From contig CM022673.1 of NCBI GenBank assembly GCA_012295275.1, forward strand, positions 18,972,001 through 19,036,000: DNA of 64,000 nucleotides, given 5' to 3'. A model generated the notes under the pieces. It saw only the letters and a list, made by a program, of their open reading frames with translations. It was not told the DNA's origin and did not search any database. This stretch comes from Chrysomallon squamiferum (Eukaryota > Animalia > Mollusca). A program made the translations under genes and the position numbers. Below are positions 4,626 through 41,647 of this stretch, in pieces. Position 1 is the stretch's first letter. Each line of letters opens with the position of its first letter.

Positions 4626-4806
4626 GTGGTGACAAAAGTAGACAGGAGTTAACTGAGGAAGCGATTTCTAGGGAATCTGGGGAAAAAAAAGAAAACAAAA
4701 GGGAAAATTATCATTAAATTTCCAAACAGATTTACACAGCAAATTTTTCAAAGCTCAGAAGGTGCCGTATTTAAATTATATTTAAAGGTATTGTCCTATA
4801 ATTATA

Positions 4807-17500: not shown

Positions 17501-20500
17501 TAGCTGACTGAGGTGTTACAGACTGTACAGCTAGCTGACCGAAGTGTTACAGACTGTACAGCTAGCTGACCGAGGTGTTACAGACTGTACAGCTAGCTGA
17601 CCGAGGTGTTACAGACTGTACAGCTAGCTGACCGAAGTGTTACAGACTGTACAGCTAGCTGACCGAAGTGTTACAGACTGTACAGCTAGCTGACCGAGGT
17701 GTTACAGACTGTACAGCTAGCTGACCGAAGTGTTACAGACTGCACAACTAGCTGACCGAGGTGTTACAGACTGCACAACTAGCTGACCGAGGTGTTACAG
17801 ACTGTACAGCTAGCTGACCGAAGTGTTACAGACTGTACAGCTAGCTGACCGAGGTGTTACAGACTGTACAACTAGCTGACCGAGGTGTTACAGACTGTAC
17901 AACTAGCTGACCGAGGTGTTACAGACTGTACAGCTAGCTGACCAAAGTGTTACAGACTGTACAACTAGCTGACCGAAGTGTTACAGACTGTACAGCTAGC
18001 TGACCGAAGTGTTACAGACTGTACAACTAGCTGACCGAGGTGTTACAGACTGTACAACTAGCTGACCGAGGTGTTACAGACTGTACACCTAGCTGACCGA
18101 GGTGTTACAGACTGTACAGCTAGCTGACCGAGGTGTTACAGACTGTACAGCTAGCTGACCGAAGTGTTACATATTATTGAAGTGCCTTTACTGTTTGTAA
18201 CAGACAGTGTAAAAAACATATACTTTAAAAATGTAAACCTTTTTCCTATATAAACTCAGCTAAAAAGGAGTCAACAAATTTTGAAATATTTTCAATAATT
18301 ATTTGCTGTAAATCAGAAGTGAAAACAAATTACATCTGATGTCAGCTTACCTGGTGCTGCACCCATATCTAGAATTATCTCTCCTGGCTGAGGATCAAGG
18401 ACATGAGAGCAGACTACTGATGGAAGATTCTGAGCAAATACAAGCTTAGGCAAAATGTCAGTCAACACTGGAGCTTCGAAGAGTGGCTCTGTCATCAACA
18501 CACCAACACCACTGAAACAGACAAAACGTAATTATATTACAGCTAGTTTTCCTACAGAACATTTAGGAAACCAATGAAACAGAAACGTTTTATTCAGTCA
18601 GTAATACAGCAGAAAAGGATAAAATAAAAACTCACCTCAACTGATTAGATTTGCAGAACAAGTCTTCTCGACTTATCTGAACAAGGCCATTACCAACAAA
18701 TATTTTGTTTTCTTCATATTTCTGTTTTAAACCTTTCAAACACAGCCCATCAATGTCAGAGAAAACAGAGACTTTATCTCCTTTCTGCATTCCTGAAAAT
18801 TATACATCAGTCCAGGTAAGTTAATTCATCAAGATTTAAACCCTTTGGACAACAGCAGCTTTAAAATTTACACTAAAGTTATGAAAATAGACACACATGC
18901 ATTTATTTTATTTCCACCATTGTGTTCATGTTCTTTTTCTAATAAATTAGAACATCTTTAGCTAGTATGATGAAGAAAAATTTACCTTTGTTTTAATATT
19001 ATTAAGAAAGAATATTTACAACAGTTTTATTCTTTCCCTTTACAAAGTTTACATTAAATGATTAAATTTTATGTCTTTTGTTATTAAAAATGTTAGAAAC
19101 CTGTGGGTGCACCCATAATTCCCTGAATAAAAACATCAGCTCCTCGGAGAACAGACATTCCACAGAGATAATCAACTATTACTTCCTTCTCTGCCTTAAA
19201 AATAAAAATAAAAATAATATTCATTGTGTTACATTTCAATAATTATGGACAATTCTTCATGCGGTTCATTTATAATTAAATTTTGAGGCAGTTGTTTAAA
19301 AAAATGTATATCTATAGTATTTAACTGTTCATATGCTCTGATAAAATTAAGTGGCTACTTAATTAAACTGTATAAATGTGCTTAAATATACTACAGTGAG
19401 AAAAAAAGAAAGAAAAATTAGCAGAAGGAAACAATACAATTACTCATGTCAGTTTGGCTGATTATAAAATTGTTAGCTATTTGAGCTTAACAGTTTTTCT
19501 TTTAGTCCATGAGAATCATATACAGAAAAAAGAAATAAAAAATAAAAAATATTTTAAATAAATATAGAAACAGGCTTCAAAACTGATTACTCATGTCCTA
19601 CACCTGAAACCAAATATATATATATATGCGTGTGTGTGTGTATGTATTGCAAGAAGGAGCAGATTTTGAAATTTAAAAATTATGTTTTTATAGTCAAACA
19701 AATTATTAGAGACACTGTAAGAATATTTGCTGAGAATAAACTTATAAAGGAGTTACTAACGTTTTAACAAAAATTAATAATTAAAGTCACCAGGAATAAA
19801 TGGATACACTGCTGAATATATCAAATTCTTTTGGTTTAATAGTATCCAGAGATCAAAATGGATTTATACATGACCAATAAACAGGTAATAATATTAACTT
19901 ATATATGAAATCTTACTTTATACAGGCATACAAAACAAGCCTGGGATGTTATAAATTGTAGATTTTGAAAAAGCTTTTGGAATTTTATTAAAAAAAAGTT
20001 TAGCTTATTTTAAGTTTGGGGTCTTCATTCAAAGATGGATATCAACTTTTTATAATGAAAGTGAATTGTGTTTATATCTAAATAGTAAGATCACTAAATG
20101 CTTCAAACTTGGTAAAAGTATAAACAAGGAAATCCATTATATCCAGATATATTTATTTTATGTGTTGAGATTCTTGGAATCTTGATAAGAAATAATAAAG
20201 ATATAAACAGGATTGAGATAAATATTAATGAAATTAAAAGTTCTCAGTTTGCTGATGACACAACATTGCTATCAGGCTGGTGTGATAAAACTCTACAGCA
20301 TCTATAGAAACATTAGAATATTTTACCAGTGTATCTGGTCTTAAAATTAATATAGATAAAACAAATATTGTAAAATAAGGCAAAGGGTGTAATGATCCCA
20401 GAAAAATGTGTTCTAAACATTTATTGATAAAATTGGACTACAGAATTTACAACACTTGGGGTATGGCTTTCCACAGATTAGTATCAAATACATGAATTAA

Positions 20501-22755
20501 ACTATAATGCAAAGTTGAATGAGATTAAAAGGCTGCTTGAACAATGGTAAAAATATTTGTCTTCTCTAGGACAAATTACTGTAAACAAAAAGTGTAAGTT
20601 TAGTTTTATCCAATTTGTTTATCTTTTTTCTTCACTACCAAATCCAACAGATTCTTTATTTAAAATATTAGAAACTTTGTAATACATTAAAAATATTGTG
20701 GATTAGAAGTATGTATATGAACAAAGACATTGCCTCTCTTTTGAGTAATTGTTTACAATCTAGAACTTTACTAATATTAGTTTTGGGGTCAGCCTACAGT
20801 AAAGCAAAATCGCTGATATGCAAAAATCCCTTTGTGAAAAATATATTATATACATAGTCAGATTTCTAGAAAAATGTGAAGCTACAAGAGACAAAAATAC
20901 TAAGTCTACCGATTTGGTATAAATCATATCAAAATTGATAATAAATGTGTTTATTATAACACATGGGCAAATAAAGGAATTTTATTTTTAAAAGATAATA
21001 CTCACAGGCTGTAGCTTGCTGTTTATACTTCGGTTTTTTATCACAAGACAGTCTTTGAGAGATGGATGTCTGAACATCTCAAACATATCTATATTTCTCT
21101 CTTTACATTGCTGGTAGGGAAAAAAGATTTAATTAATATTTAACACAAAATTAAAACCCCAAAAACAAATGAACATGTTATGTGAATTGTTCCATATTTA
21201 GTTATGAATATATGGTTTTTAACCAGTTTATTATGAACAATAATTAGATAAAAAAAAAAATTGAAGTTAATGAATAAAAATCTACATATAACTGAAAACA
21301 TAAAAATTGATCTTTATATCATATTGTTTAAAATAAAATAATTACTTTCTCTATAATTTCTCTGACACTATCAATTATCTCATGCTCTGAGTAGCATCTT
21401 GTATTTATTCTCAGAGTTGTGAAAGCAGGAGGTATCCCAAGCCATTTGAGTAAGGACAGAAATCGTTCATTTGATTCTGGGTTTGTATTTCCTACCTGAT
21501 TAGAAAGAAGCAGAAAACAAAAATTATAATGACAAAATTTATTTAAATCATATACGAAGAACTGAAATTAGAAACAAAATTTTTTTATTATTTTCTTTAT
21601 AGATATCTCACTGTAGCTTTATTATGTCATGATGTCCAGAGTCTGTTTATTATGATAATTATTTTTCTTCTGTTTTTACAATAAATTATTCTAAAATTAA
21701 TGGACAGAAGTCACCACTTACTCAAAGTATATTGTATCAACAACTGTATATGTATTGTAAGACTGACTGAAATAGCATATTATGAACAAAACTTTATGAA
21801 TGGTTCAGATAGGTTTTATAGAAAACATGCAGATCTAGTTTCAAAATGATATTACATGCTTGCTGAGTATGATGGCAGTGTTTGTATATACAGAGCTGTA
21901 TGAAGCAGATATGTAACACAATAAAGCTTGTATTTATTCACTTATAGAATTCATCTGTAGCTGCTCTGTTTTAGCATACACAATGTGCAGCACTAATTCA
22001 GTAACTATAAAATATAGTATTGAACCAGCAATTAACTTTTTGTTTTCCATAAAATTTGTTTTGGTTCTTTAAGCAGAATGTAATGAAATAAAAAATTACC
22101 AATTTTAAATGGCAGTTTATAATAACATTTTGGTAAAAATTATTATTTCTACACATTTGTTGTCATTTTATTTTCAAATATAATACAATCAATAAATCAA
22201 ATATCCCTTCATTTACAGCAACACAGCATCTATCATTGTGCTGCCTCATGAGAATTTTTTATTTAAATTTTAATTTTTTTATATCCAGATTATAATGTAT
22301 TCTTAATTCTTATGACAGTGTAGGGTATGCTTGAATATGCTTGAATGTACCCCTAGATGACGTTTTGAGATATGAACATGTATTAGGTAAAATCATGTCA
22401 TTTTTTATATATATATATAATAATTATATATAAAAAATTAATAATCAGCATCTGCAGTTTCCAAAGTTAACACACAATTATTATTGAGTTTAAGTCGTAT
22501 ATGATCGCACCATCTCTCTCTCTCTCTTTATCTTTTCTTTTTTTTTTTTTCTTACAGAATCTGCATATGCAGTAAAAGATTAAAAATAAAATATTCAGTA
22601 AAACCAGTAATTACCGTCATAGTCATGGATGTCCAAAATTAAACTGACCCAACTAAAATTTACCACGATAAAAAGGTTCTTACATCCATAGCGCTGAACG
22701 AGTTAGCAAGCCAGGCTCTAACCTCAGGATGCAGTCGAATACTGTAGACAGCCAT
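14515..22755 (-). CDS. NSUN6: tRNA (cytosine-72-C5)-methyltransferase NSUN6, about 451 aa, 11 coding exons
   Basis: Exons (minus): 22755-22684, 21495-21346, 21110-21006, 19194-19101, 18792-18636, 18511-18351, 17159-17119, 16733-16604, 16213-16056, 15556-15431, 14676-14515. All introns are GT-AG and the phases join into one 1356-nt frame. Motifs: PPAFTTLRINT, PUA domain (CGMSVLRGADVF), QNLPS, DMGAAPGGKT, FDRILLDAPCS, YSTCT, DTIGFFIAKF. Confidence 0.95.
17451..18170. repeat. 31-bp minisatellite, about 23 copies, in NSUN6 intron 6
   Basis: Tandem unit GTGTTACAGACTGTACA(G/A)CTAGCTGACCGA(G/A), with no spacers. A degenerate copy lies at about 17415-17450. Confidence 0.97.
19720..20998 (+). mobile_element. 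Degraded L1/Tx1-type non-LTR retrotransposon ORF2 (reverse transcriptase) fragment in NSUN6 intron 3
   Basis: RT motifs readable in order across stops and frameshifts: KSPGINGYTAEYIKFFW, DQNGF, IVDFEKAF, KQGNPL, SQFADDTT, SGLKINIDKT, and C-terminal PIWY...TWANKGILFLKD. Confidence 0.85.
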
Positions 22756-23910: not shown

Positions 23911-25749
23911 ATCCATCGAAAAGTAGTCAGTTTTCATTTACTTATTTCTAAATATTGATAAACAAACATTGTACGTTTCTAACTGGAAAAGCGGAAGATG
24001 GAAACTAAAATTCATCTACCATTTATTTAATGATTTCATTTATTGAATGCAGGAGTTCCAGATCGATGTGACACGCAGTGTTATACAATGTTACATATAT
24101 ATATATTTTTACAGTTCTGATATTCGTTATTTGAAGATATTTAACAAGGAAAGTAAAAAAAAAAGGTGATCTAAAAAATATTAATAATAATGTATCGTAA
24201 TTATCGACAATAAAAGAATGATGAACAAATCAGAATGATAGTTCAATTAGTTGATAATAATTGATATATGCTAGTGCTATATTCCAGACCACGTGCTAAA
24301 TTCTTTTTTCTGAGTCATTAAAAATTATGAATCAATTCAGATTTTGTATTGCTTTAGCTGAGTAGCTTTGATTAATTAATTATTCAGTCAATTTTAAATT
24401 TATAAAAAATTTAATTTTCTTTACAAAAAAAAGAAATATATATATATTTCTTATCATTTTATAATTTAATTCCAATATATATATAATCTATAAACTCTTT
24501 AACATGTGCCAAATAATCAGTTGGCAAATCATATTTTTTCCCTTTCCTTCCCATATGGCGTTACTGTTGACAGAACAAAATAAAAGATTCTTTCTAAACA
24601 CTTACCTCTTGTATGGATGGTACAATTGCAAACAGTATCATAATGCACTGTACCTATGTTCTATTAAGTGGAGATAGTGTAGTCTTTCTATGTATGTGTT
24701 TTTGGCAGTTTGCTTTTTATACATGTTTTCACTATAAAACACATTGCCATGGTCATGGAAATTGCTACCATCATTTACAGGTAACTCTGCAAATAATGGA
24801 ACCTGAAAAGTAATAGATTTTTTCCCATATCCGGTTTTGTATCTTTCTTTATAAATATTAACATACAAGATCTTGTACAGGATGACAGTAAAAGGTATTA
24901 GAATGTTCCACGAATTTCCCCAAAATGACAGCTATTATCTGTTTATGGAAGCAATTGTTTTAAAGTAATAATCTTTATTTCCAAAATTGTTACATAATCC
25001 TTTTTGTCAGTGTTGATAAAATAATTCAGTTACATCAGCAGTTTTATGATCAGTTGAGTATATTGTTACATATGACGGGTTTGAATTTTACCGTATCACC
25101 TGCAAGTGCTGTGGTTGTCCTCCTCATTTAGCTTAGTGTTTCAAAATTTGGACAGTATCTATTGCAATAAAGACCTGTGAAGGTACTTTTAATCTAGAAA
25201 TGCAACTTTAAAAGTTGAAAAAGCACAAATGTATTAGGCAAGCTAGCAAGTATTTGTTAGGTACGAGTGATTCAAATGAACACAAATGGCAGCAGGCTCT
25301 TCATTTGTGTAAACTAGATAAAAAGTATTAATTATAAAAAAATATATATCATTGTGTTTGTATTATGAATAAATAGAAGAAAGTATTGTCTTTTCTTTTT
25401 TTAATATGAGTAAAGTGCAGTTTGATCTAAAGGGATTTTATTCAGTTACCATCTATATGTCCTTTTTACAATCAGATTATCAGCTTTGTCAATGTACACA
25501 TATATTTGAATTTGAATATATACTGTTCATAAGATGTAACATGACATATTTGAATATTATCTATTGAACAAAAATGGCTATAAAATTTTCCTTATTTTCA
25601 AATTTATATGATGTAACTGGTAAGGAATAACTGTAGTTAGCAAATGTGCATTTAAAAAAAGAATATGTTTACTGATAATAAAAATAACATTAGTTGAGCA
25701 TATTCATGAAACTATAAAGCCAGCAATTATCACGTTACTTAATGTAGTA

Positions 25750-26083
25750 ATGCCATCTGACGCCAAAAAGAAAAGAGATCAGAAGAAGAAAGAAGCAGCA
25801 AAGAAGAGGACTGCTGCAAAACCTGTCAAGAATGAAGACGCACAAAATGGAATAAATGGTGCTTCAGGTAATTGTTGTTTTATAAATCTTTAAACAGTTA
25901 ATACACTGTGTACATAGTGAATAAATTATTCTTGCAACCAAACTGTCACTAAAGAAATACAAAAGTTTTTGTTTATTCAATCACATTTCAGTAAAGTCTA
26001 GGCGTTAGTAAGTAGTACATAGAAACAGATCACAAACTAGCTCTGTGTTTAAATTGATACACTGAAGGGATAAATTCCACCTA

Positions 26084-26116
<33 letters not shown>

Positions 26117-29100
26117 CACACACATGTATATATACTCATGTTCAAATTTCTGGAGTTCATACCACATAATAATTCATACCACATACTACAAAATAACAGA
26201 AAGAAGTTAATCTTTATTTACAAAAGAAATAATTGAAAAGTTTTTCATTCAGATTTTGTTGTTTCTTTCTAACTATGTGTATACCAAATTTTAAATCTGT
26301 AGCACAAAATGTTAGGGTAGTATCAAAAATAATGTCATTAAAAAACCCCAAATGAAGTTTTATAAACCATATTTCCATTTATTGTGACTCTAGAAGACTT
26401 GTTATGCACCATTATTTTGTTATTCATGTATATTCACTTTCTTTGCAAAAATACCTGAAACATTTCTGTGAAAAAGTAAAGTTTTTATATATGTTCTCTA
26501 AATGGCCATGTCAAAAACTAAAAAAGTGTTTTTGTTTATTCAGATTTTTTCATTTTACACTTAGCTTGTCCACTTTCTCCCTAGTAATAGCTTTTAAACT
26601 AATGGAGACATGTTTTCTTAATGGTTTCTTTTTGTCAACACTTTTTAACATTATTAATCAATTATTTATTTATGTACTTTATATTATATATATATATATA
26701 TATATAAAACTTCATAACAGTCAGATAATAACATTCATAAGAAATGGCAAAAACCTGTATTATTGATGATTAAATTTTGTTTTCTTTTTAGCTACAGAAA
26801 TTGATGAAGTCACTGATGCTCTAAATGATATTGGCCTAGATCTTGCAGCAAAGCACAGATCTTGTACAGGAGTACTGGCTTCTCATCCTGACAGCCGGGA
26901 TGTACACATTGACACGCTTTCTATTGCTTTCCATGGTGCTGAGTTACTTCATGACACACGGCTTGAACTCAATGTTGGCAGGAGATATGGTCTCATAGGA
27001 CTGAATGGCTGTGGTAAAATTTTGTTTGTTTTGGCATTTTTAGCTGTGGCAGCATTTGAAATTATTGGGTGCAAATAGCTTGAATATCCCATTTGCACCA
27101 GAAATGTCATTATTGCAGTCTACTTGGAGCAGTTGTGTCAGTAATTTTTGTTTACTGAAACTGGAAGCAGTTCAAACTTAAATACTAAATCTGTTATAAC
27201 TAATACAAAAACTACATATGTGATAATTGTGATTTAGATTTTGTGAGAAAGACTGTTAAAGTAATCAGATGTTTTGGATAAATAATTGTAGTTGAAACAC
27301 AGTTAATTCATGTAATTTAATTTTATTCAAATTTATGTTGATTAGATGAAGAATACAAAAAAGGAGTTCCTCCTGCCATTTTGCTTACTTGATGCTCAAG
27401 GGTTATTTATAATTAAATAGAGGCATAATGATAATACAAATGGTCAACAGAATAAAAAACATTCTCTACCAATCATGTTTGTTTATTTTATAGATGTTTT
27501 AGTTTTTTAAATGCATGAAAATAAAAAAAATAAAAAAGTACTGAATAATAAAACACTAATTTTTATTAATTCATTACAAATATATATATAAAATGAATTA
27601 ATAAGAACTAGTAATGTATTGTTCAATATTTCATTATCTTTGTATACTAGAAAATGAAAAAACAAACAAATATATATATATATAGATCTGTTAAAAAAAT
27701 GTTTTTAAGCTATAATCAAGATTAATTTAAAATTAGTGAAAATTACTACAAACTAGTGAACCACAGTGTTCCCACTATGTGTTCATAAACAGACACACAA
27801 AATAAAACTTTCAGACTTCAAAACTTAAACCATAAAAGACAAAATGGTAGTGTAGGAAGCAAATATTTGGTATAGTTCAATTTTGGGTTCTAATTATTTA
27901 TTATTAGAAAAGGTGATATTTCATTTCAAGGAACATCAGGTAATAAACAATGTAACATTCAACCGTCCTTATTTGACAGCCAGTTGAAAACAGCTGATTT
28001 ATTCTGTTGTGATTACAGGAAAGTCTACACTGTTGAAGGTTCTGGAAATGAGAGAAATTCCAGTGCCAGATCATGTTGATATTTTCCTGTTGCGCAGAGA
28101 AATGGCTCCCTCTGACAAGACAGCAATCCAAGCTGTTATTGATGTTGATGCTGAGAGAGTCAGACTAGAAAAAGAAGCTGAAATCCTTGGTGCCAGAGAT
28201 GATCCAGGTAATTTCTTTTAACATAAAATTAAAAAATTTCACCAAAACTTAATTGGATTTGTATGTTATTATGTATGAAAACATCATTGTTTAACCCTTA
28301 GACTATTTCATTATTTTCTGATTTTAATTTTTTATAATACAATCAGGTTAATAAATCATGAAATGTTAAAATATGTATTACTTTTATAAAATGAACATGA
28401 TAGTCTGCAGTGAAGATTTTAAAATAAAAACACCTAAAGTAAAACAGTTGCACTGATACCACTTGCAGTTTTTTTGTTTTTTTCTGGCCAGTCATATAAG
28501 CAAATCAGTTATAATTTATGAATGGATCCATACATGACTTGGGTCAGTCGTAAATGAAATGTTGTAATTACCAATTTTCATTCATCATAATTGTAATTGA
28601 TCAATTACAGTTCAGTTAATGTAATATGAATGTGACATCTTATATATATATATAACCAAATGTTTCTTTAAATAACAATTATAGATTTAGGGAGTGTTTT
28701 TTTTTTAAGAATAAGGATTATTAATGCAAAATATTACATTTATGACGAGGTTGTCATGAACAAGCAAATAAATCTGATATTTGAAAATAACTGCAGGATA
28801 TCCATTTTACTCTTTGTAACAGTCACTGGGATCTTTTTTATTTATGTTGCTATGTTCCTTTATAATCATAAGTGAGGTATAGATTAAAATAAATAAATTG
28901 TAACAGACAACAATGAAAGAGGTAACAATAGTGATTGTTTTTTAAGCATTGGGAAGAGGATTGTAATTCTGAATGAAGGTTAGAAAGCAAAATAATTGTA
29001 ACTATAATGGGAAATGAATTAACCCTGTCATCCTAGTGTGATGAACATCGTACTTCTACTTTGATTATATCATGACTTATCTGCAAATTTGTGAATATTT

Positions 29101-32100
29101 ATGCATTTCACTAAGTTGTGACTAACGATATTTTTTAGAATCTCATGAACGCTTGCTGGATGTATTTGAACATCTAGATGAAATGGATGCTGACAAGGCA
29201 GAAGCAAAAGCTGCATTTATACTCAATGGTTTGGGCTTTACAAAGGAGATGCAGTACCAGAAGGTAATTCTATATACCTTTTGCATGTGAATATTAATAT
29301 TATTAGTAACTATGAAAATATTTACGTATTTTAAGAATAAAAGTGAAAGATTATTAGTTTAATTAAAATATTTAAAACACAGGGACTGTGGATTAATTTA
29401 TGATGAAACGGATATAGAAATGATTCTTTTATATAAATCAATTTTAAAATGATTGTCTTTTGTATATTTTTCATTTTTATAATATTTAAGAACAGCTAAT
29501 TATGTCAAAATGTTAATTTATATTTATTGCTGGTCAACTGGCAACTATATTTTTTTTTTTTTTTTTCGTCTCATTAATTATTAGAACTATCCTGTTACAA
29601 AACTTCAGCATTAACTTTCCAACAAATAAAATTTGCCATATTTATGTCTTTCAAATTAAATGGTTTATTTTTTTTGTTTTTGTTTTTTTATAAACTCCAA
29701 AATTAATGTTAAAAATTCTCAAAAATGTAAAAAAAAATTAAAAAAAAAATTATTATTCCTGGCCATAAAGATATGAAATGTGAATTCATTACAATATAAA
29801 TATTGTAATTAATTATTAATTTTCAAATTGACTGTGAAATTACAGGTCTAGTTTTTTTTTACCAACTCTTAATCATCCAACTATATAAAATAAATCACTA
29901 CTTGAAAGATCAAGTATTTCCCTGCATACATAGTTACAATAATAAACAGCTTTTAATTTTACTCTTTCCAGGTAAAGAATTTCTCAGGAGGTTGGAGAAT
30001 GCGCATTGCTCTTGCCAGAGCCTTGTACATCAAACCAGCACTACTGTTACTGGACGAGCCCACTAACCATCTGGATCTTAATGCTTGTGTTTGGCTGGAA
30101 GAAGAATTAAAAACGTTTGTTAATTTTCTGTTGCTCATTTCTTGTCACTTTTAAGAAATTTGTGTTAAATGAAATGGAATATGATGACAAAAAAGGCCGA
30201 GGTTCAGTGTTTAAGCTCTCTATTTCAGATTGATGCTTGACACAATGGTCTAAACTTCGTAGCGATTTAATGTTACTGATTCCATTTTGTTTTAAAACAA
30301 TATTTTGCATTCAGTTTTTGATTTTCATATATAAATCCAGAATTGAAATTTCATTTCAAAACCATAGCTTTTTTGATTCTGGTCATGAAATTAAAGAGAA
30401 ATCAGTCTTCTCCAGTTACAAATTGATGATTTTGTTGGTTTTGGGAACCAGCAATCAAGGTTCAAAGTTTGAACTCTGATTTCAGATAGATACTTCAATG
30501 TTTCTATTTCACTTAATGTCATTTTATTTTACTTAAAAATGTGTTACTTCTTATCAATTCATTTCACTGTTATGAGAGTGTATCTCAATATTTGGTCTTG
30601 TTTATGGACAAAAATTTTCCTTTCAGATACAAGAGAATTTTGGTTATAATTTCACATTCTCAAGATTTTCTGAATGGTGTCTGTACAAATATAATCCACA
30701 TGCACTTGAAAAAACTCAAATACTATGGTGTAAGTGTTTCGCTGTTTTTATTATTGATTGTTATTACTGTTTCAATTTATTAAACGCTACCAGGCACATG
30801 CACACAAAATGTTGTATTAGCACTTATACATTTAGGTGTTTCAACTGTTAAATTTTTACAGTTTACTTCAAATTTTCATTTATTGGTTTTAATGGTATAT
30901 CATGTATAAAGATGTTGTTTTTGTTTGTTTTTGGTTAAGATTTTTTTTCTCCATTAATATCCTCCATTCATCCAAAAGGCAATATTGTAAATGTAAGGGT
31001 TCCTTGACATTTTATTTTATTTTTCTAGGGTAATTATGATTCATTTGTTCAAACACGAATGGAATTGGAAGAAAATCAGATGAAAAGATACAAGTGGGAA
31101 CAAGATCAAATAGCTCATATGAAGGTGTGTGTACTGGCAAGAGTAATGTTTTCCTACTTTATGAAGAAAGTTTTCCTTGTTAAATTATCAAATAATAGTG
31201 ATGTATGGAATATGATGACAAAAAAGGCCGAGGTTCAGTGTTTAAGCTCTCTATTTCAGATTGATGCTTGACACAATGGTCTAAACTTCGTAGCGATGAA
31301 ATTTTACTGATTCCATTTTTCTGTAAAATTATTTTTGATATTGTTGATTTTCTTTGTTCAACTAATTACACTTTTGTTTTAATTCTGAATATTGTTTGTT
31401 ATTTAAAATACTGAATTGTCACAACAATCTAGCAGTTTAAAAAATAATTTACAGTCTCACCTCAGTAGTGTTTATTCTCTTCAGCGCTTAATTATACAGT
31501 ATGTAAGTACGTAAGTGTGAAAAATAAAACTGCTAAATGTTATAAAAGTTGACAATCAAAATTTGTGTATCAGAATAAATAAACATATGTATCATTTTAT
31601 AGATATTCATAACATATTATAAACCATAAAAAAATTCCAAGGCTCTTTTTGAGACATCATTTAAAAATAGATGCATCTGAAAAGGGCCTTTTTGCAAAAT
31701 AATGAATTGGATGTAGAGAAAAAATTTGAAGTTGAGAATTTAATGACAAATGACAATCAATTTGTGTGTGTGTGTGTGTGTGTGTGTATAAATATATACA
31801 CACACACACAGTGCTTTACTGCTTAATCATACAAAATATGATGAGAATACGGTTTGAAAGAGATGTTCTTTTTTAAAATTGCTGTGATCGATATAAAGGC
31901 CACAATTTCTTTGCTTTTTACAGCTAAATCTCTCTTCTTTTACTTTTTCTTTTTTTCTCTTTTTATAAACAGCAGTAAACTGCCCTGCAAATGTTTTAGC
32001 TTAGTTTGCCAGCTGGCCACACTGACTGTAAACTATGTTTTGATGAATGTTTGATTTTTTTATTTGTGAAAATGAAAATGAAGAGTATAGCATGAAATGT

Positions 32101-34565
32101 TAACATTGGAAAGAGGATGCAGTTGAATATCTGTGTTCAGCAACCATGATTAATTCATCTTCATTTAAAATCTTATGTATGAAGAATGACTAGTCTAACA
32201 AACCATACAAGATATATGTAATCATTATCACACAGTACAAAAACAGGCTGATTCACTAATAGTATTTATTTGTAGGACTACATTGCCCGATTTGGTCATG
32301 GCAGTGCCAAACTTGCAAGGCAAGCACAGAGTAAAGAGAAGACACTGAAGAAGATGGTTGATAGTGGTTTGACTGAGAAAGTTTCATCTGATAAGGTGTG
32401 ATGTTACCATAGTGTCTTCAATAACAGAATGATTTTTAATGACAGAATATCTCTAATTTTTTCTCAATTAAAAAATTAATGTTTAAGTTTTTAAACTATA
32501 TATTTATGTATATATTTATAGAATATATATTTACTGAACCATTGGATAGGTAAAGTACTATTTCCTGATTTTTGTAATATGTTTGAGAAATGAATATTCA
32601 GACTACATGCAGAAACATATATTTATTAGCGTTTAGCTGTTACCTATTTTGGTTGTGGAGTTTATCTCAAAATTATTAATTTTCCATAAATCACTCTTCC
32701 TTGGTCCTTTTTAATTCATTTTATTATTGATGAGCACTGATTTGCCCTGGATATGGTATGATGCTGGCTAATCAAACTTGTTTACAGCACTGATACAGTG
32801 AATCAGAAAAGTGTTGTACATATGTAAATGAAAAAAAGAAGTGTTACCATCTTTCATTTCCCAGGCCTGCACTGAGAATATTTTTTTTTTTTTTTTTTTT
32901 AGCTTTTGTCATTTTACTTCCCATCATGTGATCCAATCCCACCACCAGTCATAATGGTGGAAGATGTCAGCTTCAGATATGGTCCTGATAAAGTAAGTTG
33001 CTTGTTTCCTGTTGAAACAAATAAAACAACTTATGTTCTGCTTAGAAATTTTGAACCATGATTATAATATGTAAGAAATTAAAGCCAACATTTATAAATT
33101 AAAGTAACATGACCAGATAATTTTAAATATATTTTTTTAGAACAAAATTCATTTGTATCTCAAGGAGGTTTTTTTGATGCCATAAAATAAGTTGGTTAGA
33201 ATGAAATTTATTTTGTAATTGAATATAAATTATTTATCTGCAGCCATACATCTACAAGAATCTCGATTTTGGTGTTGATTTAGATACACGTATAGCTCTG
33301 GTGGGACCAAATGGAGCTGGAAAATCGACTCTGCTGAAATTAATTACTGGCGAGGTAATTTTTGTTTAAAATATCTAGATAATTTTCAGTCATTTTGTTT
33401 TCAGTATCATCATAAAGCTAAGGGATTTTGTATGTATTTCATATGTTTATATTTGCTTGCAGCTGGTACCTACTGACGGATTTATTCGAAGACATTCACA
33501 CTTGAAAATTGGAAGATATCACCAGGTAATTAAGAGAAGATGGTAAAATTATATTGTAAACAATACATGTATAAACTGACAATTAATACGTTACCCCATA
33601 AGTATGAAAATAAATATCCTTTTAAATTCTACCTCAGTATTCTGTGACAGTTCTTTATTTTCATAATTAATTAGAATGTAAAGTAGAAAAAATAATATTG
33701 CTTTTTTGTAGACAGTTTTTTTTTTTTTTTAATAGTTCTTCAAATTATTACCAAAAATGTAAAGGATGCTAAGGTGTCTGTCTGTTAAAATTTATTTTTC
33801 TTTCCACATATAGCATCTGCAAGATCAATTGGACTTGGAAGTATCGGCGCTTGATTACATGATGAGGTGTTATCCTGAAGTTAAAGAACGAGAAGAAATG
33901 AGGAAAATTATTGGTCGATATGGTCTTAGCGGATTACAGCAGGTTTGTAATACTGATGTATTACAGTATTCTCATTAATGTAAAAACATTTCTGCTATTA
34001 ATTTTTATGCTTGGATTTTGGTTAACAATTTTAAATTACTTTTATTATTATAGACATGTCCTATTAAAAATCTGTCTGATGGTCAGCGATGTCGAGTAAT
34101 ATTTGCCTGGCTTGCATGGCAATGTCCACATCTCCTTCTGCTTGATGAACCAACCAATCATTTGGATATTGAAACAATTGACTCTCTGGCAGATGCCATC
34201 AATGACTTTCAAGGTGGTCTCCTATTAGTCAGTCATGACTTCAGGCTTATATCTCAGGTAATTTACACACACTCAATTACTGAAAATATGAAAAATAACT
34301 GCTTAATACATAGAGAACTGAACTGTGTTTGTGTGTGTGGATGATTTTACTTCTTCAGTATTATTAAATTGGCAAAATTTCAAGATATTTTATCCATAAA
34401 GAAAAGATTTTCAGACATTACAATAAGATTTTTGACTTTCAGGTTACAGAAGAAATCTGGATATGTGAAAAACAAACAGTGACAAAATGGGACAAAGACA
34501 TATTTGAATACAAGAAACAACTGGCTGCAAAAGTAACAAAACAAAATGCCAAACTTCGAAAATGA
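25750..34565 (+). CDS. ABCF2: ATP-binding cassette subfamily F member 2, about 611 aa, 14 coding exons
   Basis: Exons: 25750-25867, 26792-27013, 28019-28207, 29139-29263, 29972-30114, 30627-30729, 31029-31124, 32276-32395, 32903-32992, 33244-33354, 33463-33525, 33814-33942, 34054-34257, 34443-34565 (1836 nt, in frame). N-terminus [18 protein letters not shown]. Two ABC domains ([28 protein letters not shown]; [26 protein letters not shown]) and linker [21 protein letters not shown]. No TM domain. Confidence 0.97.
30172..30287 (+). ncRNA. Box C/D sno/scaRNA, SNORD89-like, copy 1 (ABCF2 intron 5)
   Basis: Terminal stem AAATGGAAT/ATTCCATTT, box C ATGATGA (30181-30187), box D CTGA (30276-30279), internal stem GTGTTTAAGC/GCTTGACAC. 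Antisense AAAAGGCCGAG is complementary to U2 snRNA CUCGGCCUUUU. Layout matches human SNORD89 as I recall it (not searched). Confidence 0.85.
31205..31316 (+). ncRNA. Box C/D sno/scaRNA, SNORD89-like, copy 2 (ABCF2 intron 7)
   Basis: Stem ATGGAAT/ATTCCAT, box C 31212-31218, box D 31307-31310. Identical to copy 1 over about 93 nt while the flanking intron sequence is unrelated. Confidence 0.85.
31969..32108 (+). ncRNA. Candidate box H/ACA snoRNA (ABCF2 intron 7)
   Basis: 5' hairpin ACAG-CAGT..pocket..GCC-CTG-CAAA / TTTG-CAG-GGC..ACTG-CTGT is followed directly by an ANANNA H box (AAACTA, 32030-32035). An AU-rich second hairpin follows, then ACA at 32103-32105. About 140 nt, sense to the host. 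Target not identified. Confidence 0.4.
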
Positions 34566-36614
34566 TGACTGGATAAATTTAGGCAATATCTGTACTTTGT
34601 CTTTCTTAATTTATGGCAACCATTATTTAAAATTTAAATTTGAGATCAGTTAATGCACATCTGTGTTATTTCGAAATAAACTGAACCACTCCGTATATTT
34701 AACAAATTGTATTTATTTGTATGTCATTCACTGTCAGCAGGTTCTGAAACTGAAAAACCAGATCTGGGAGTAATAATTAAAACTTGAGAATTGTCCATGT
34801 TTAATGTGGGTTTTTTTTTAAAAAGTATTAATTATATGTGGATTGTCTTCTCTGAAAATAAATTCATATTACATCTCATGAATTAATATTTTTAACTTAT
34901 AATTAGGGATGAATGTTATTTTTAAGTTCAATTTAATCTTTAAAACCTTTCAACCTCATTGCTATTTATGTAACTAAGCAGTGAATCTAGGTAATCTACG
35001 AATACAGCAAGATGTTTAAATCTCCAGGAAAATAGTACTTAGCAAATTCAGATTTTAAAAAAAAGAAAAGAAAAGAAACATTTTGCATAGTATGTTTAAT
35101 TTTAAAATAAAGTTAGTTCAAGGGGATTGGAAATTTGTTTTCGTGATTTTAGCCATTTTAAAAGCATTATTTCTCTTATGGAAATAATCCACATAATTGT
35201 TTAGTTGGTTGAACAAAATTAAGATACTTAACACCTTAGTTTTTCAATTTTTTTAGAGATGAGCAATTTAAGTTTAATAAAAAAATAAAAATAATCTATT
35301 TGCTGAAAACAGGTCAGTTTTAATCAAGTTCTTTGGCATGCATGGATATTTTAATATATTTTGACCAGTAGAAGCCACTTGATCTAAAAACTTTTTATAA
35401 TCTCATTTGTTATTTATATAAAATTATCTGTGTTTTGTTAATATTCAAACTAAAAAATTTGTTGCCTGTAATAAGAAACAATAAAATTGGTTCTTGACAC
35501 GGCTCGTTTTCCCATTTCTTTTACTGAAGTCGTATAACTTGGGTGTTTTGACAAATATTGATCGGTTGCTGTTGACTTGGTAGACTAGTAAAGGTTCACA
35601 CACGGTTTGAGATCAGAACAAATGCTTTTATTTTTGGTATATATTTTTTAATTTTATTAAACTTTATTTAGAAAATAAACATGTTTATTAATTTTATGAC
35701 TAGTTACCAGAAACTAATGAAAGTTATTTTCTCTTACAGGTTTTGCTTTTTAATAATGTCACATGTATTTGGCAAAACAGACATCAGAATAGGTCAAACA
35801 AATTTAATAAACCAATTAAGAGTACATTTAAAAATAATTTTCCAGATACATCAATTAATATTACAATAGTGGCGGTTAAACTTTATAATTATCTAATTAC
35901 AGAGATGCCCATAACAGCTCTTGTACATCAAAAGTTTAGAATTGTTTGAAGCGGGGATAAAAACAGTTAACTACAAATGGTTAATGCTGACATAAAGCAG
36001 TTGTAATATTATGGATAATGCTCCAAGTGTGAAATAATATGGTCATTTTCATTTTTGAAGATTTATAAACTGATATCTCTCGATATATTTACACAATTTA
36101 GCTATACTAATTTATATTGAACAAATTCCCATGCTGTGAAAATTCCCTTGTAAAAAACCCCTGGCTCCGATTTAGCAAACAAAACATTTATTTTCAGTTA
36201 ACACATTTCAAATTTTAAGGCAGTACAGCAGCAAATGCCAAATTCAACACAGATAGGACAATTAACAATCTTTGTGCCACTACATTTTATTCAAAATGAC
36301 AAAAAAAAAAAAGCATCTATAGAAACACAAACAATTATATTTATTACATCAGTGTTTATTAAAAATGAACAAAATGAATCACTTAAGAGCAAGATGAATA
36401 CAAGACAAATACAAAAAATGTTTTGTAGCAGCAGAAATTACTGAAAATGAAACAATAACAAATTCATTGTTATAGGAACGTTGACATCTCAGACAAAAAT
36501 CCAAGTCTGCCTTGCAGGTATCCATAAAAAGGTGTGACTGTCAATTGTCCTGTCTGCTGCTCATGTACATAAATCACAATATAATTGCCTTGGATAATCG
36601 CAAGCTTTACTACT

Positions 36615-39600
36615 TCAGTTCAGGTCAGGTAAATCTGAAAAAAACATGCGCCTTTATTAAAACCAGTGACATTTTATTTTGATTTTTAATTTATTTGAGA
36701 GGACATTTAACACATACCAGCATCCATCATTTCTGAAACTTTAACACACATTATCCTTTTTTATGTAGATAATGTTGCTCTAAACAGGGTCTACACAGAA
36801 AAATAATTAGCTTGCTACTTACCATCATCATCACTGTCTTCGTCTTCTTTATCCTGAAAACAGAAACATACTCAAACATGAACCAAAAATATGTAATAAT
36901 AATATATAAAAATACATAAAAATAAATACGAAACTAACACATAAATCCTGCTTATAAAATTACAACAAAAGCGTCTTCAGTAAGTATTAAATGTTACTCA
37001 TTCATTGTTTTTCTTAATTCATTTTCCATAGAATTTATACACGTACCTCATTTTAAGGCAAGCTATGTGATATTCACATTTAAAAGTTTTTATTTAAGAC
37101 AAGATCATATTTATGCTGAGCTGACCTCAAAACTGATATTAACTACAAAAATGAAAAATCAAATAAAACTCACCATATCTAACGGAGCATCTTCACCACC
37201 CAGACCTCCCATAGAACCCATCATCTAATTAAAACCATTTATATAATTTAAAAAATGAGTCAATAAATAGTAAATTAATAAAGATGTTATTTGACTTAAT
37301 GAACATGAAAATATCATTTAAACCACATTTTAAAATCTGCATGGCCAATTCTTTTTTTATAACTCATCTTGTAAAATTTCTTGCCATTAGACCTCAGCAT
37401 TTAAGTTCATTTATGAAACGTTAATACATGCATTAAGATATTTCAAAATATTTCTTTTTAATTAATAAATAATGATAAGAAGCAATTTGTTTTTAACTTC
37501 TTCTAATTTTTTAGTTTGTGATGTCAATAATTCCCAAAATGAGCATTTAAAAATGTTAGTATTCATTTACCTGCTCAAGATTAAAATCATCTGCAGGTTC
37601 ATCAATATCTGAATCATCTTCATCCTTCCATCTTTCAAAATCTGTTTTGATATAATGAACCTGTAAAATAAAAATTATGCATGAAAAAATCATATAATTC
37701 AAACTGCTCTGAGATAAACAATAAAATACACCTCGTTCTCATACAAGATTTGCTTGAAAAGTATTTTAAAAATACATAAATTTAGAGTGCTCACCTTTTT
37801 TGTATCTTTTAATAACCGTGGCCAGAAGGCTTCATCTGTGTGTTTTTTCTTTAATGTAAAAGCTATTTCCCTACCTCCAACAATATATTTAGAAGTCTGG
37901 AAATAATAAAAATAATATTTTAAGGATTATGAATAATCTATATTTATAATTTTTTAAATTATATAATGAAAAATATAAAACAACACTTTTTTAATAAATA
38001 TATTTTTATTAAAATAATTTAAGATGTAGTTATCTAAATAACTTTCTAAAAAACATTCACTTCAATGGTACTTACATCAGGACATATAGCTGCGTAGAAT
38101 TCCAAAGTAACTTCATAAAGCTGTTTTTCTGTACCACCTTTTCCTCTGAAATTAATATATATATATATATATATATAAATATACATACTCATACATACAC
38201 ACAAAGCATAAGATAAATATACATATGGTATCTTGAATGTCGAATCTGATTATAAACATGCTTTAATTAACTGTTTTCTTGTTAGAAATTCATTTAATCA
38301 GTTTTATAGTGTTCGTCTACAAAAGAACAGTATAAACACACACACACACATACATCTATAAAGTGATTATAAAGATAAACAACTTTATTATTCATTAAAT
38401 AAAACTAATTCCAAAATAATGTACAAATGTGGTTGGTCCTGTATTTCACATATTCCTCATATTGCATTTCTTAAAATGCTAAGCAGTAGACATTTCATGA
38501 AAATCTTTATGTCAAACTTATAAATTAATTCTTTGATAAAACTGTTTCACTCTTACAGATATTTTTATTCAAGATGAATTTTTATAATGTATATGCTCTT
38601 TTTCAGAATATTTAAATTATGTGTCCATTTATCTTAAGTGACACTTGTATCAGGTCCATATTCGTATATGGAAGCACACAAAGGTACTTTATTTAGCTAG
38701 CCAGAAACTGACTCATACTTACTTGAAATGTAGTGTGTTCTCTGTCAACTCAATTAATGGATTATTGCAGTTTTCCAAGACTACTGTCAAAAGGACTCTA
38801 TCTTTACGTTGTGCCCAAAGAATTGCAGGGGGATAGCTGCTGGTGAAAAAGAATAAAACAAATAAGAAATATAATTCATTGATTTAAATAAAAAAATATT
38901 AATAATAAAACTGCCTTTTCTGATTTATAAATACAGTCTCTGGCAATATCCCTATGTATTTTATGCATCTGTAACAACACAGGACTAGTACAACACATTA
39001 ATGTATAAAGGTATTATCCTTGAGTTCATACTGTTTGTATTATTTAATAATTTTACTTTTAAAGTGTAAATAATTTGAATATGTCCAACTCACATTAATT
39101 AACTGTTTATACTGAAATCAATCCATTCCATAGTGATGGTATTCGAAATTTAGGCTATCATCAAAAGCCAGCAACATTAAAGTGGAATTGTGTGTGCCTG
39201 CACACACACGTGCAGTATCAGGCGTTAATAATCTTACATCTGAACATTACAATCAAAAGATGCATTTGGTATAACATTATTGCCCTGATATAAGCAGACA
39301 TCTTTAGCATTTGAATACACTGGTTATTCAAAATCTGCATTTTATTTGAATGTACTGAATGATAACGTTTAATAATGCAATCATTTTAAATGTACAGCGT
39401 CTCCACCCACCGATTTTGATCAGTAGTGAGATTGCCCTACTTCAAAAATACAATAATGCACATATCACAAAGTATGTTCGCCTTAAATGTGGATAATTAC
39501 AAGACCAGTAAGAAGATTACATATAGCAAACCAAAAAAATATTATATTGCATGTTCTAATAATTTCCAAATGAAAACTGGTATCAAAACGTGGTAACGTG

Positions 39601-39988
39601 GTTCTATTATTCATAGACTTTTTTTTCGGTAACGATGGCTGCGAAAGAGTTAAATCCAAACTATTTCAGAGATTTAAAAAATGAATTATTTATAATGCAA
39701 AACAACACAATTATTTATCTTTTTACTTAATAAATAAAAAGTGTAATATCAAAAACAACATATGAGAATTCATTGTAATTATGAGTCAATTGGAACCAGT
39801 CTACCGTAATATTAATAAACATTTTAATGTTGTAAAACATTGCAGTTTTTGGTAAAAGAAATATTGGTATTTAAATTTAAGATAGTTTTCATAAGTATGT
39901 TATCTGTTATGATACACTATAATACTCTCTGACTATCAATAAAACATATTTACATTTCTGTAGCGTGATCGGACATAGCTTCAGGCAT
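36615..39988 (-). CDS. PTGES3: Prostaglandin E synthase 3 / Hsp90 co-chaperone p23, about 171 aa, 8 coding exons
   Basis: Exons (minus): 39988-39954, 38839-38723, 38145-38076, 37896-37795, 37660-37571, 37224-37174, 36853-36823, 36634-36615 (516 nt, in frame). Motifs PPAILWAQR, FWPRLLKD, IKTDFERWKDEDDSD, and acidic tail EDSDDDDLPDLN. Confidence 0.95.
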
Positions 39989-39989
39989 G

Positions 39990-40170
39990 CCTTCCGTCTC
40001 GACTGTTCACTGCGTCTTTTTTTCGCGGGTCTACCGAGTCAAGAAAAAGGGCAGAAAAGAAACAGACATAAAGCGTAAAGAACCGTACAACTAACAAATC
40101 GCTGAAAGGAAATTAAAAACTGTAACAATTTTTCAAGTGGTTTTAAGTGTCAAACATTAGGTACGATGTA
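39990..40170. promoter_or_regulatory. Probable shared promoter/5' region of head-to-head PTGES3 and NOSTRIN-like genes
   Basis: CpG-enriched patch just upstream of the PTGES3 ATG. A plus-strand donor TAG|GTACGA at 40160 could supply the UTR exon for the acceptor at 41426-41427. Confidence 0.35.
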
Positions 40171-40210
40171 GATAAGTGAATATGTTAATAAATATTTTTA
40201 TATTTTAAAT

Positions 40211-40249
<39 letters not shown>

Positions 40250-40956
40250 TGTATATATGAAACTGAATAAGCAAAGTATTTAAGTTTTTAAATTGCATTA
40301 TTATTTAGTGATAATATTGATAAAAGGTTAATTAATATTTTATCATAAAAGGAAATATTGAAATATATCTAAAATCTGGGTGTTTGTATATTTAAAATGT
40401 AACTTTTAAATAATATATTATACAAAATATATCTTTTGCTATTAAAAAGTATGATAAAATATAGTAGAGTAATTATTTATTTATTATCTTTGGTTGTTTA
40501 TCAACATTTAGAAATTCCATACGCCCGCTTGGAAGAGAATGCCAAAAGAGATCAGTCTATTATTACATTTTTGGATTTTTAGAAATAAAAATGTATTGAA
40601 CAAAGATTGTTCCTATTATATTTATTAATTGTATATTAATGAGCATTAGATCACCAAATATTATTCACAAATTTTATATTAGTTATTTTAGATAATTTAT
40701 TTCCCGTGTATTTTTTGTTAAATTTTATCATTCAGTGTACCAGTCTACGAATGTGCCTATGATACATAGAAACGAAATGAAATATAACGCACATTTTGAA
40801 ACATGATAATAAATACTACCGCGCATAAGGTCATTCACATGTGATAATAATAAAGTATAATATAAATATAACAATAAATGTACAAATACATCTGAAATAA
40901 CGAACACTTAAAGAATATATTATAAATAGTTTAATTTGCACTCAACGAACGTGAAA

Positions 40957-41030
40957 GGCCTGTTAGCTCAGTTGGTTAGAGCGTCGTGCTAATAACGCGA
41001 ATGTCGTGGGTTCGATCCCCACATGGGCCA
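40957..41030 (+). tRNA. tRNA-Ile (anticodon AAT)
   Basis: Full cloverleaf: acceptor GGCCTGT/ATGGGCC, A-box TAGCTCAGTTGG, anticodon loop CT-AAT-AA (AAT at 40991-40993), B-box GGTTCGATCCC, discriminator A. Oligo-T terminator at about 41040. Confidence 0.95.
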
Positions 41031-41430
41031 TATAATTCCTTTTTCTTTCTTGAAAAAATTACGTAATAGTATTTAAAAAAAGAGAAGATAAAAATATTTC
41101 TATAATATTTTCAATTTCTGAAAATGATGTGTACTAAGCAATAATAACTTTGTGGACAAGTTTGTATGTTTTGACTAAAGAAAGTCATTTCATTTATTTA
41201 TTTATTATTATTTTTTTTTTTATATATATATATTTTTCATCTTAATTTAAATTGAAATTCAGATATGTATTTAAGTTAACTAAATAATAAGTGCTTGGAG
41301 AAACAGTATTCCTATGTCGTTTCATTATTTGCTTTGTGTTTTATATTTACTGAAATCTGTTGTTTCCTGTTTTCATGTTCGATATGTCAAATGGATTAAG
41401 TTGGGACTAATATATTTCATCTTTTAGATA

Positions 41431-41647
41431 ATGGCCCAGTTTAAAGACAGCTTTAAGGTAAGAAAGACATTTGGTATATTTTTTCTTTATAATATCGTTA
41501 TTAAAATTTCGGTTCCTTCTTTTAAATAGCGAATATTAAACGGGCATTTCCTCAACTTGCTTGTGGCATGAGAATTAAAATGGATTTCACTTGAGAGTAA
41601 TGTCCCTTCCAGTGTTATAGGTATCAATAAATGTCGGTAAATTTGTC

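What the first reader, a model, noticed from the sequence alone, without database searches (positions are those of the whole stretch)
30172..31316. Two intronic C/D RNAs antisense to U2 snRNA: an invertebrate SNORD89-like spliceosome-methylation guide hosted in ABCF2
Seen: two copies with box C, box D, a terminal stem and the element AAAAGGCCGAGG shortly after box C. Established: metazoan U2 begins AUCGCUUCUCGGCCUUUUGG and is 2'-O-methylated at G11/G12 in vertebrates. The element pairs with U2 nt 7-18 (11 Watson-Crick pairs plus one G-U). Counting five nt back from a degenerate D' (UUCA) lands on G11, or on G12 with a one-nt shift. The order UGAUGACAA..AAAAGGCCGA..CAGUGU-stem-ACAC..AGCGA..CUGA matches human SNORD89 as I remember it, and as I recall the human gene sits in a different host. 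Inference: this guide predates vertebrates, has changed host gene and is duplicated here. It is invisible to ORF-based annotation.
Basis: partly seen in the sequence, partly recalled or inferred. Interest (0 to 1): 0.8.

Follow-up and report, generated by a model that had tools for sequence, protein, structure and literature searches.

The report
Duplicated snail SNORD89-like U2 methylation guides
Two near-identical small-RNA gene candidates sit in two introns of an ABCF2 gene, likely of a snail; they are likely the counterpart of vertebrate SNORD89 and are predicted to grip the start of the splicing RNA U2 at two places and direct sugar methylation of two neighbouring guanosines, so they are a new member of a known kind.

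Summary
Observation confirmed. Two box C/D copies with a 93/93 identical core lie in spliced GT-AG introns of ABCF2 of a gastropod close to Gigantopelta. The duplication also shows in DNA contigs of two studies. The D' guide pairs with vertebrate U2 nt 7-18. Rfam SNORD89 is the best hit but below threshold (20.4 and 16.6 bits vs 41). A model built only from other organisms' homologues scores the copies at 62 and 61 bits; seed-only controls reach 34 at most. Homologues sit in the same ABCF2 intron in an arachnid and a third animal, so ABCF2 is an old protostome host; human SNORD89 is in RNF149. Two additions: the conserved AGCGAU before box D is a second element complementary to U2's first nucleotides, and it follows the plant-type U2 end in snoR113. 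D' comparison favours G11 at +5 and G12 at +6. Function is published for SNORD89 and a plant guide for the equivalent site is assigned. This scan already noted the same family in ABCF2 introns on other DNA (three findings, at least two genomes). Not shown: a discrete RNA, this species' U2 sequence, or methylation. New member of a known kind; interest 0.35.

The parts
30172..30287 (+). Copy 1 of the SNORD89-like box C/D RNA gene, with terminal stem (mature RNA predicted at about 105-112 nt)
   Evidence: (62.2 bits); in the 512-nt intron 30115-30626
30181..30187 (+). Box C (AUGAUGA), copy 1
30191..30202 (+). D' guide, complementary to U2 nt 7-18 (11 Watson-Crick + 1 G-U), copy 1
   Evidence: U2 motif
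30203..30206 (+). Degenerate box D' (UUCA; +5 = G11, +6 = G12). Alternative register GUUC at 30202-30205 gives +5 = G12
   Evidence: the assignment is inferred
30207..30243 (+). Internal hairpin closed by GUGU/ACAC, followed by a degenerate C' (CAAUGG, about 30243-30248), copy 1
   Evidence: predicted fold; same closing stem in mouse Snord89
30261..30266 (+). Second antisense element AGCGAU, complementary to U2 nt 1-6 (predicted extra pairing), copy 1
30276..30279 (+). Box D (CUGA), copy 1
31205..31316 (+). Copy 2 of the same RNA gene: box C 31212-31218, guide 31222-31233, D' 31234-31237, hairpin 31238-31274, second element 31292-31297, box D 31307-31310
   Evidence: (60.7 bits); in the 1151-nt intron 31125-32275, the intron that also holds the homologue in L006 and L008
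29972..30114 (+). ABCF2 exon upstream of copy 1
30627..30729 (+). ABCF2 exon between the copies
31029..31124 (+). ABCF2 exon upstream of copy 2 (ends in ...HMK, phase-0 intron follows)
25750..34565 (+). Host gene ABCF2, coding span (start codon inferred from the six-frame translation)

Best explanation
The two intronic copies are likely SNORD89 orthologues: box C/D guide RNAs predicted to be released from ABCF2 introns and to direct 2'-O-methylation of U2 snRNA at G11 and G12. Shown: two intronic C/D-shaped sequences in a spliced ABCF2 gene, their complementarity to the vertebrate U2 5' end, and homologues in the same intron in distant animals. Inferred steps: (1) after splicing the intron is trimmed to an RNA of about 110 nt protected by the C/D proteins; (2) the D' guide pairs with U2 nt 7-18 while AGCGAU before box D pairs with U2 nt 1-6, so the two elements would tile the first 18 nucleotides of U2; (3) fibrillarin placed by the degenerate D' (UUCA) methylates the nucleotides at positions +5 (G11) and +6 (G12), the double specificity known for yeast U18, snR13 and U24; (4) box D has no adjacent guide and would serve assembly only. 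The second copy is a local duplicate kept identical by selection or gene conversion, most simply for dosage.
For: Guide complementarity 12 bp, -19.8 kcal/mol; co-fold of copy 2 with the U2 20-mer gives the tiled 1-6 plus 7-18 duplex. Rfam SNORD89 has the lowest E-value of 13 weak hits (0.46). Model R1, built from 7 non-window sequences including a true vertebrate SNORD89 (L094, 101.7 bits on Rfam), scores the copies 62.2 and 60.7 bits, next hit in the window 15.4; in 100 of the 122 loci, the 86 non-training matches, which share the seed motif, score 33.9 bits at most. Same phase-0 ABCF2 intron after ...HMK in the window, L006 (chelicerate) and L008. Second element: 7-8 bp with U2 nt 1-8 in 7 of 7 animal homologues, 6 bp in both window copies; 0 of 23 seed-only controls that have a CTGA (88 controls in all) reach 6 bp; random 26-mers of the window do so 0.76% of the time. 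Read by eye, Arabidopsis snoR113 has AAAGGU at this place, complementary to nt 3-8 of Arabidopsis U2, whose 5' end differs. The G11-register 4-mer ends in A in 15 of 15 candidates, the G12-register 4-mer in 2 of 15; controls 26 and 37 of 88. Literature: SNORD89 guides Gm12 in yeast (PMC6984369); mouse knockdown lowers Gm11 by 72% and Gm12 by 37% (PMC11863803); +5/+6 precedent (PMC8053127 section 14).
Against: Both copies miss the Rfam gathering score (20.4 and 16.6 vs 41), and L006, L008 and L032 give no SNORD89 hit at E<=1. No discrete RNA is shown: RNA contigs over the copies are at depth 2-5 and run into flanking intron, and the second RNA run has essentially no cover there. This species' U2 was not obtained; its 5' end is assumed from vertebrate and fly sequences. 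The window's second element has a U-U mismatch against U2 nt 7, and its C' is degenerate. The animal homologues were chosen with a screen that rewarded AGCGA, so 7 of 7 is partly circular, and they represent about four lineages, not seven. Copy 1 did not form the second duplex in the co-fold. A pair count on alignment A2 gave no covariation support (54% paired, 360 of 500 shuffles as high; my columns were misregistered). On register: PMC11863803 names UUGC as D', the yeast test reported Gm12, and snoR113 has CUUA in the G13 (= G12) register.
Confidence: 0.85

Rival explanations
1. Same RNA and target, but a classic single-site guide: D' is GUUC and only G12 is methylated, as assigned for plant snoR113; G11 methylation is a vertebrate addition.
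For: Arabidopsis U2 G13 (= G12) is the listed site and snoR113 its guide; Gm12 detected in yeast; chicken GGgCD74 predicted for U2-G12; PMC11863803 names UUGC as D'.
Against: Final A in the G11 register in 15 of 15 candidates, with the predicted hairpin starting right after it in 9 of 15; mouse knockdown hits G11 harder than G12.
Confidence: 0.3
2. A functional U2 G11/G12 guide that arose independently of vertebrate SNORD89; the likeness comes from sharing a target.
For: Much of the shared sequence is forced by boxes and by complementarity to U2; Rfam score is low; host genes differ.
Against: Features not forced by the target are shared with mouse Snord89: the C-to-guide spacer CAA/CAU, the 6-nt linker, the GUGU/ACAC stem, the A-rich stretch after C' and the spacing to box D.
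Confidence: 0.08
3. The guide targets large-subunit rRNA instead of, or besides, U2.
For: snoR113 was first assigned to 25S G1446. This animal's rRNA was not available to test.
Against: That Arabidopsis 25S site is unmethylated and snoR113 was reassigned to U2; the second element matches U2's first nucleotides; mouse chimeras map to U2 nt 0-24.
Confidence: 0.04
4. One or both copies are unexpressed leftovers of a recent duplication, or an assembly artefact.
For: 93 identical bases; no discrete RNA shown.
Against: The shared 93-nt unitig has about twice the depth of its flanks in DNA runs of two studies (196.5 vs 81-91; 142 vs 60-65), so the duplicate is real; flanks are diverged while boxes, guide and stem are intact.
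Confidence: 0.05

Closest known systems
SNORD89 / HBII-289 (Rfam RF00578), vertebrate box C/D guide for U2 Gm12 and Gm11 (PMC6984369, PMC11863803)
   Same: Box C followed by the AAAAGGCCGA guide, 6-nt linker ending in A, GUGU/ACAC stem, AGCGA element 8-10 nt before box D, length about 110 nt, intronic location, predicted target.
   Different: Host ABCF2, not RNF149; two copies; divergent hairpin and C'; guide extends to U2 nt 7 while the second element covers nt 1-6 (nt 2-8 in the vertebrate locus L094); scores below the Rfam threshold; Cajal-body signal not identified.
Arabidopsis snoR113 (Rfam RF01420), assigned guide of U2 Gm13 (PMC8053127; sequence from PMC2685112)
   Same: Box C followed by the same guide core, internal hairpin, equivalent target, and a short element before box D complementary to the plant U2 5' end (6 bp, read by eye).
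   Different: Intergenic; D' CUUA in the G13 (= G12) register; no sequence similarity beyond boxes and guide in the Rfam alignment (17.2 bits), so homology is not shown.
Dual-specificity D' guides (yeast U18, snR13, U24; Arabidopsis U24, SnoR58Y, SnoR29, SnoR10) and extra-pairing C/D guides (PMC8053127)
   Same: One D' guide for two consecutive nucleotides at +5 and +6; an extra duplex next to the primary one on the substrate.
   Different: Those act on rRNA; here the substrate is the capped 5' end of U2, and both features are predicted only.

Membership tests
Box C/D guide RNA | Box C (RUGAUGA) and box D (CUGA) closed by a terminal stem | tested here: met
   both copies; stems of 8 and 6 Watson-Crick pairs
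Box C/D guide RNA | 10 or more nt of complementarity to the target upstream of D or D' | tested here: met
   12 bp with vertebrate U2 nt 7-18; this species' U2 not in hand
Box C/D guide RNA | Intronic, on the sense strand of a transcribed host | tested here: met
   splice joints
Box C/D guide RNA | Accumulates as a discrete RNA bound to fibrillarin, NOP56/58 and 15.5K | tested here: inconclusive
   only contigs, low-depth intronic cover without discrete ends
SNORD89 (RF00578) | Reaches the Rfam gathering score (41 bits) | tested here: not met
   20.4 and 16.6 bits. So it is not a formal member of the Rfam family as curated; orthology is inferred from the other rows
SNORD89 (RF00578) | Detected by a broader model that includes vertebrate SNORD89 and excludes the query | tested here: met
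   62.2 and 60.7 bits vs at most 33.9 for seed-only controls
SNORD89 (RF00578) | D' guide placing U2 G11/G12 at the methylation position | tested here: met
SNORD89 (RF00578) | Conserved internal stem and (GA)AGCGA element before box D | tested here: met
   by motif and per-sequence fold; statistical covariation not shown
SNORD89 (RF00578) | Orthologous host gene (RNF149 in human) | tested here: not met
   host is ABCF2; human host RNF149. Hosts vary: L066 and L089 lie in an eIF3b gene
SNORD89 (RF00578) | Methylates U2 G11/G12 in vivo | not testable with these tools
   needs RiboMeth-seq or a yeast assay
C/D scaRNA | Cajal-body localisation signal | not testable with these tools
   PMC6984369 says SNORD89 has CAB boxes but the text and rows seen do not give them
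snoR113 (RF01420) | Rfam gathering score (47 bits) or similarity beyond box C and guide | tested here: not met
   17.2 bits, box C and guide only

The most novel reading that the evidence does not exclude
SNORD89, these ABCF2-hosted invertebrate RNAs, a protist-like group and plant snoR113 are one family as old as the eukaryotic crown: a two-armed clamp that tiles the first 18 nucleotides of U2, whose second arm has co-evolved with the U2 5' end (GAAGCGAU against the animal end, AAGGU(AU) against the plant-type end). In animals the true D' is UNNA, so G11 and G12 are the +5 and +6 positions of one guide, which explains the two-site effect of SNORD89 loss in mouse. ABCF2 would be the ancestral bilaterian host, left by vertebrates.
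Probability: 0.45. Interest if true: 0.55.

Novelty: new member of a known kind. Interest (0 to 1): 0.35.

Why it matters
U2 Gm12 is needed for splicing in vitro and SNORD89 loss shifts hundreds of exons in human cells (PMC7960923, PMC11863803, passages read). An invertebrate guide that Rfam's threshold misses shows that the modification system is older than vertebrates and supplies sequences to widen the family model. The comparison yields two predictions that can be tested in human SNORD89 itself: an extra duplex with the first nucleotides of U2, and a D' register (UGCA) that makes G11/G12 a +5/+6 pair. It does not open a new class of RNA.

Tried and rejected
Rfam at gathering score over the window: only a tRNA. 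Rfam at E<=1 over 25600-41500: tRNA and microsatellite-driven miRNA hits, no SNORD89 at that search size and no further snoRNA in ABCF2. No whole genome is held, so U2 of this species and other copies could not be searched. A U2 5' motif scan of viral contigs found 0. Single-strand folding is no evidence by itself (z -1.99 and -0.18). Pair counting on A2 gave no support because my column string was misregistered and MAFFT does not align the stems. Intronic cover in RNA run X9 (depth 2-5) is not taken as expression. The weak SNORD19B/SNORD30 hit at 30410-30491 was not accepted: score far below threshold and the stretch before CTGA is a self-complementary hairpin. L008's ABCF2 could not be placed (70% to several phyla; unresolved in the quick tree; the careful tree did not finish). 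The phylum of L066/L089 was not determined. Most of the 101 distinct seed hits (88) lack the family features and were used as controls. Papers without use: PMC2875012, PMC4914119 (no SNORD89 in main text), 10.1101/2021.08.01.454689. Drosophila papers gave no G11/G12 guide or ABCF2 link in the passages read.

Full report
Observation. Copy 1 has box C at 30181-30187, the guide at 30191-30202 and box D at 30276-30279; copy 2 lies 1031 bases downstream. The 11-mer occurs twice against 0.21 expected, and 1 of 100 shuffles reached two. The copies are 93/93 identical in the core, differ at 3 of 9 bases just before box D, and are 3/20 and 13/20 alike in the nearest flanks without gaps. In DNA contigs of two studies the shared 93 bases form one unitig at about twice the depth of the flanks (196.5 vs 81-91 and 142 vs 60-65), so the duplicate is real.

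Host. tblastn maps the ABCF2 exons across about 26,800-34,560. One exon is 93% identical to Gigantopelta aegis ABCF2, the best of 99 hits, and the quick tree makes the two sisters (SH-aLRT 100; the careful search did not finish). The animal is likely a vent gastropod of that group. RNA contigs of two runs splice 30114>30627 and 30729>31029 at GT..AG and continue from 31124 into the next exon. Copy 1 lies in a 512-nt intron, 66 nt after the donor and 347 nt before the acceptor; copy 2 in a 1151-nt intron, 87 nt after the donor. Low-depth intronic contigs (depth 2-5) in one RNA run overlap both copies but run into the flanks; they do not show a discrete RNA.

Family. Rfam at gathering score finds nothing here. 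At E<=10 over 1241 bases, SNORD89 has the lowest E-value of 13 matches (20.4 bits, E 0.46; copy 2 16.6 bits, E 4.2; threshold 41), and plant snoR113 matches box C plus guide (17.2 bits). Most are chance matches in microbial DNA. A screen for box D, terminal stem and AGCGA picked seven animal-type sequences: L006, two in L008, L032, L066, L089 and L094. L094 is a true vertebrate SNORD89 (101.7 bits); L089 and L066 score 28.6 and 24.2; the others give no SNORD89 hit at E<=1. A model built from these seven, without the window, scores the window copies 62.2 and 60.7 bits, with the next hit at 15.4. Searched over 100 of the 122 loci (22 duplicates or near-duplicates left out), the 86 non-training matches score at most 33.9 bits although they share the seed. 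About 30 bits therefore come from outside the seed. Mouse Snord89 (supplement row) has the same linker, GUGU/ACAC stem and GAAGCGA element.

Host history. L006, L008 and L032 carry the RNA in ABCF2 introns. In the window, L006 and L008 one copy lies in the same phase-0 intron after ...HMK. L006 is a chelicerate (86-87% to scorpion and mite proteins; tree); L008 could not be placed. ABCF2 has therefore likely hosted this RNA since the mollusc-arthropod ancestor. L066 and L089 use eIF3b, and human SNORD89 lies in RNF149 (PMC12152556, passages). Which host is ancestral is open.

Target and mechanism. With the vertebrate U2 motif from the supplement of PMC6984369, the guide pairs nt 7-18. The fly U2 primer in PMC13228274 (passages) shows the first 14 nt shared with vertebrates, so the snail's end is probably the same; it was not seen. 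The motif before box D is itself antisense to U2: 8 bp with nt 1-8 in six invertebrate-type sequences, 7 bp with nt 2-8 in L094, 6 bp with nt 1-6 in both window copies. None of 23 seed-only controls with a CTGA (of 88) reaches 6 bp, and random 26-mers do so 0.76% of the time. The seven were chosen partly for that motif, so their count is not independent; the exact match to U2's first bases was not selected for. Six further candidates, picked by stem and by eye, carry a different motif there, matching the Arabidopsis-type U2 end by 6-7 bp in 4 of 6. Arabidopsis snoR113 (PMC2685112 supplement) has AAAGGU, complementary to nt 3-8 of Arabidopsis U2 (PMC8053127 supplement; compared by eye). Extra pairs next to the primary duplex are common in C/D guides (PMC8053127, passages). 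In the co-fold, copy 2 formed both duplexes and copy 1 only the guide duplex.

Register. The 4-mer that puts G11 at +5 ends in A in 15 of 15 candidates and is NNGA in 6; the 4-mer that puts G12 at +5 ends in A in 2 of 15; controls give 26 and 37 of 88. The predicted hairpin starts right after the first 4-mer in 9 of 15, in fragments that began at that 4-mer. With that D', G12 is position +6, the pattern of yeast U18, snR13 and U24 (PMC8053127 section 14). This fits mouse knockdown, which lowered Gm11 by 72% and Gm12 by 37% (PMC11863803, passages). Against it: those authors name UUGC as D', the yeast assay reported Gm12 (PMC6984369, passages and supplement rows), chicken HBII-289 was predicted for G12 (PMC2653536, one passage), and snoR113 has CUUA in the G13 register, the site listed for Arabidopsis. 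The 15 sequences are a handful of lineages. A pair count on the MAFFT alignment gave no covariation support.

What is known. SNORD89 function is published, and Gm12 is needed for splicing in vitro (PMC7960923, passages). I found no paper on an invertebrate SNORD89 or an ABCF2 host in these searches: SNORD89 + invertebrate (5 papers, 3 listed), ABCF2 + snoRNA + intron + host gene (0), mollusc + snoRNA + scaRNA + U2 snRNA + methylation (1), HBII-289 (7), snoRNA + U2 snRNA + Gm12 (21, 16 listed); these were seen as listings except where cited. 'Extra base', 'additional base' and 'second antisense' do not occur in PMC11863803. Figures are not held, so Fig. 2 of PMC6984369 may draw the second duplex; the Arabidopsis snRNA guide table (S12) lay beyond the stored cut, and one supplement file of PMC2685112 was not searched. 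Subscription papers and snoRNA databases were not searched. This scan noted the same family in ABCF2 introns three times, in at least two other genomes, two of the notes mentioning a split antisense element; these are unchecked AI notes, seen after my note on the second element, and are not counted as support.

Verdict. A real, duplicated, intronic C/D guide candidate, likely orthologous to SNORD89 though below the Rfam threshold: a new member of a known kind. Confidence 0.85 in the U2 G11/G12 guide reading; interest 0.35. The value lies in the comparative predictions about extra pairing and D' register.

Noticed in passing
L072 (747-838, -), L075 (1340-1437, -), L107, L086, L036, L103: A second group of shorter C/D-shaped sequences from AT-rich, probably protist contigs with the same box C and guide. 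The element before box D matches the Arabidopsis-type U2 5' end by 7 bp in three, 6 bp in one, 5 and 4 bp in the others.
   Followed up: partly
L066:3993-4100 and L089:293-388: SNORD89-like RNAs inside an eIF3b gene, a third host; second element 8 bp, only 3 nt before box D.
   Followed up: partly
L008:3164-3282 and 282-395; L032:108-226: Another animal also has two copies in ABCF2, one in an earlier intron than in the window: duplication inside this host has happened at least twice.
   Followed up: partly
window 30410-30491 +: Box C-like TTGATGA and CTGA in the same intron as copy 1, weak SNORD19B/SNORD30 hits (21.9 and 20.7 bits); probably chance.
   Followed up: partly
window about 15300-21600 -: Exons of an RsmB/F-type RNA cytosine methyltransferase (NSUN6-like by my recall), divergent from ABCF2.
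   Followed up: partly
window 37559-37926 -: Exon-like peptides that recall the co-chaperone p23 (recalled; no Pfam hit on the one piece tried), tail to tail with ABCF2.
   Followed up: no
window 40957-41030 +: tRNA-Ile, anticodon AAT.
   Followed up: yes
window 3270-4667 -: Intronless rhodopsin-family GPCR frame of 466 codons (7tm_1, Srw).
   Followed up: partly
window 11381-12579 +: Frameshifted DDE_1 transposase remnant; similar-looking fragments near 52100-54800.
   Followed up: partly
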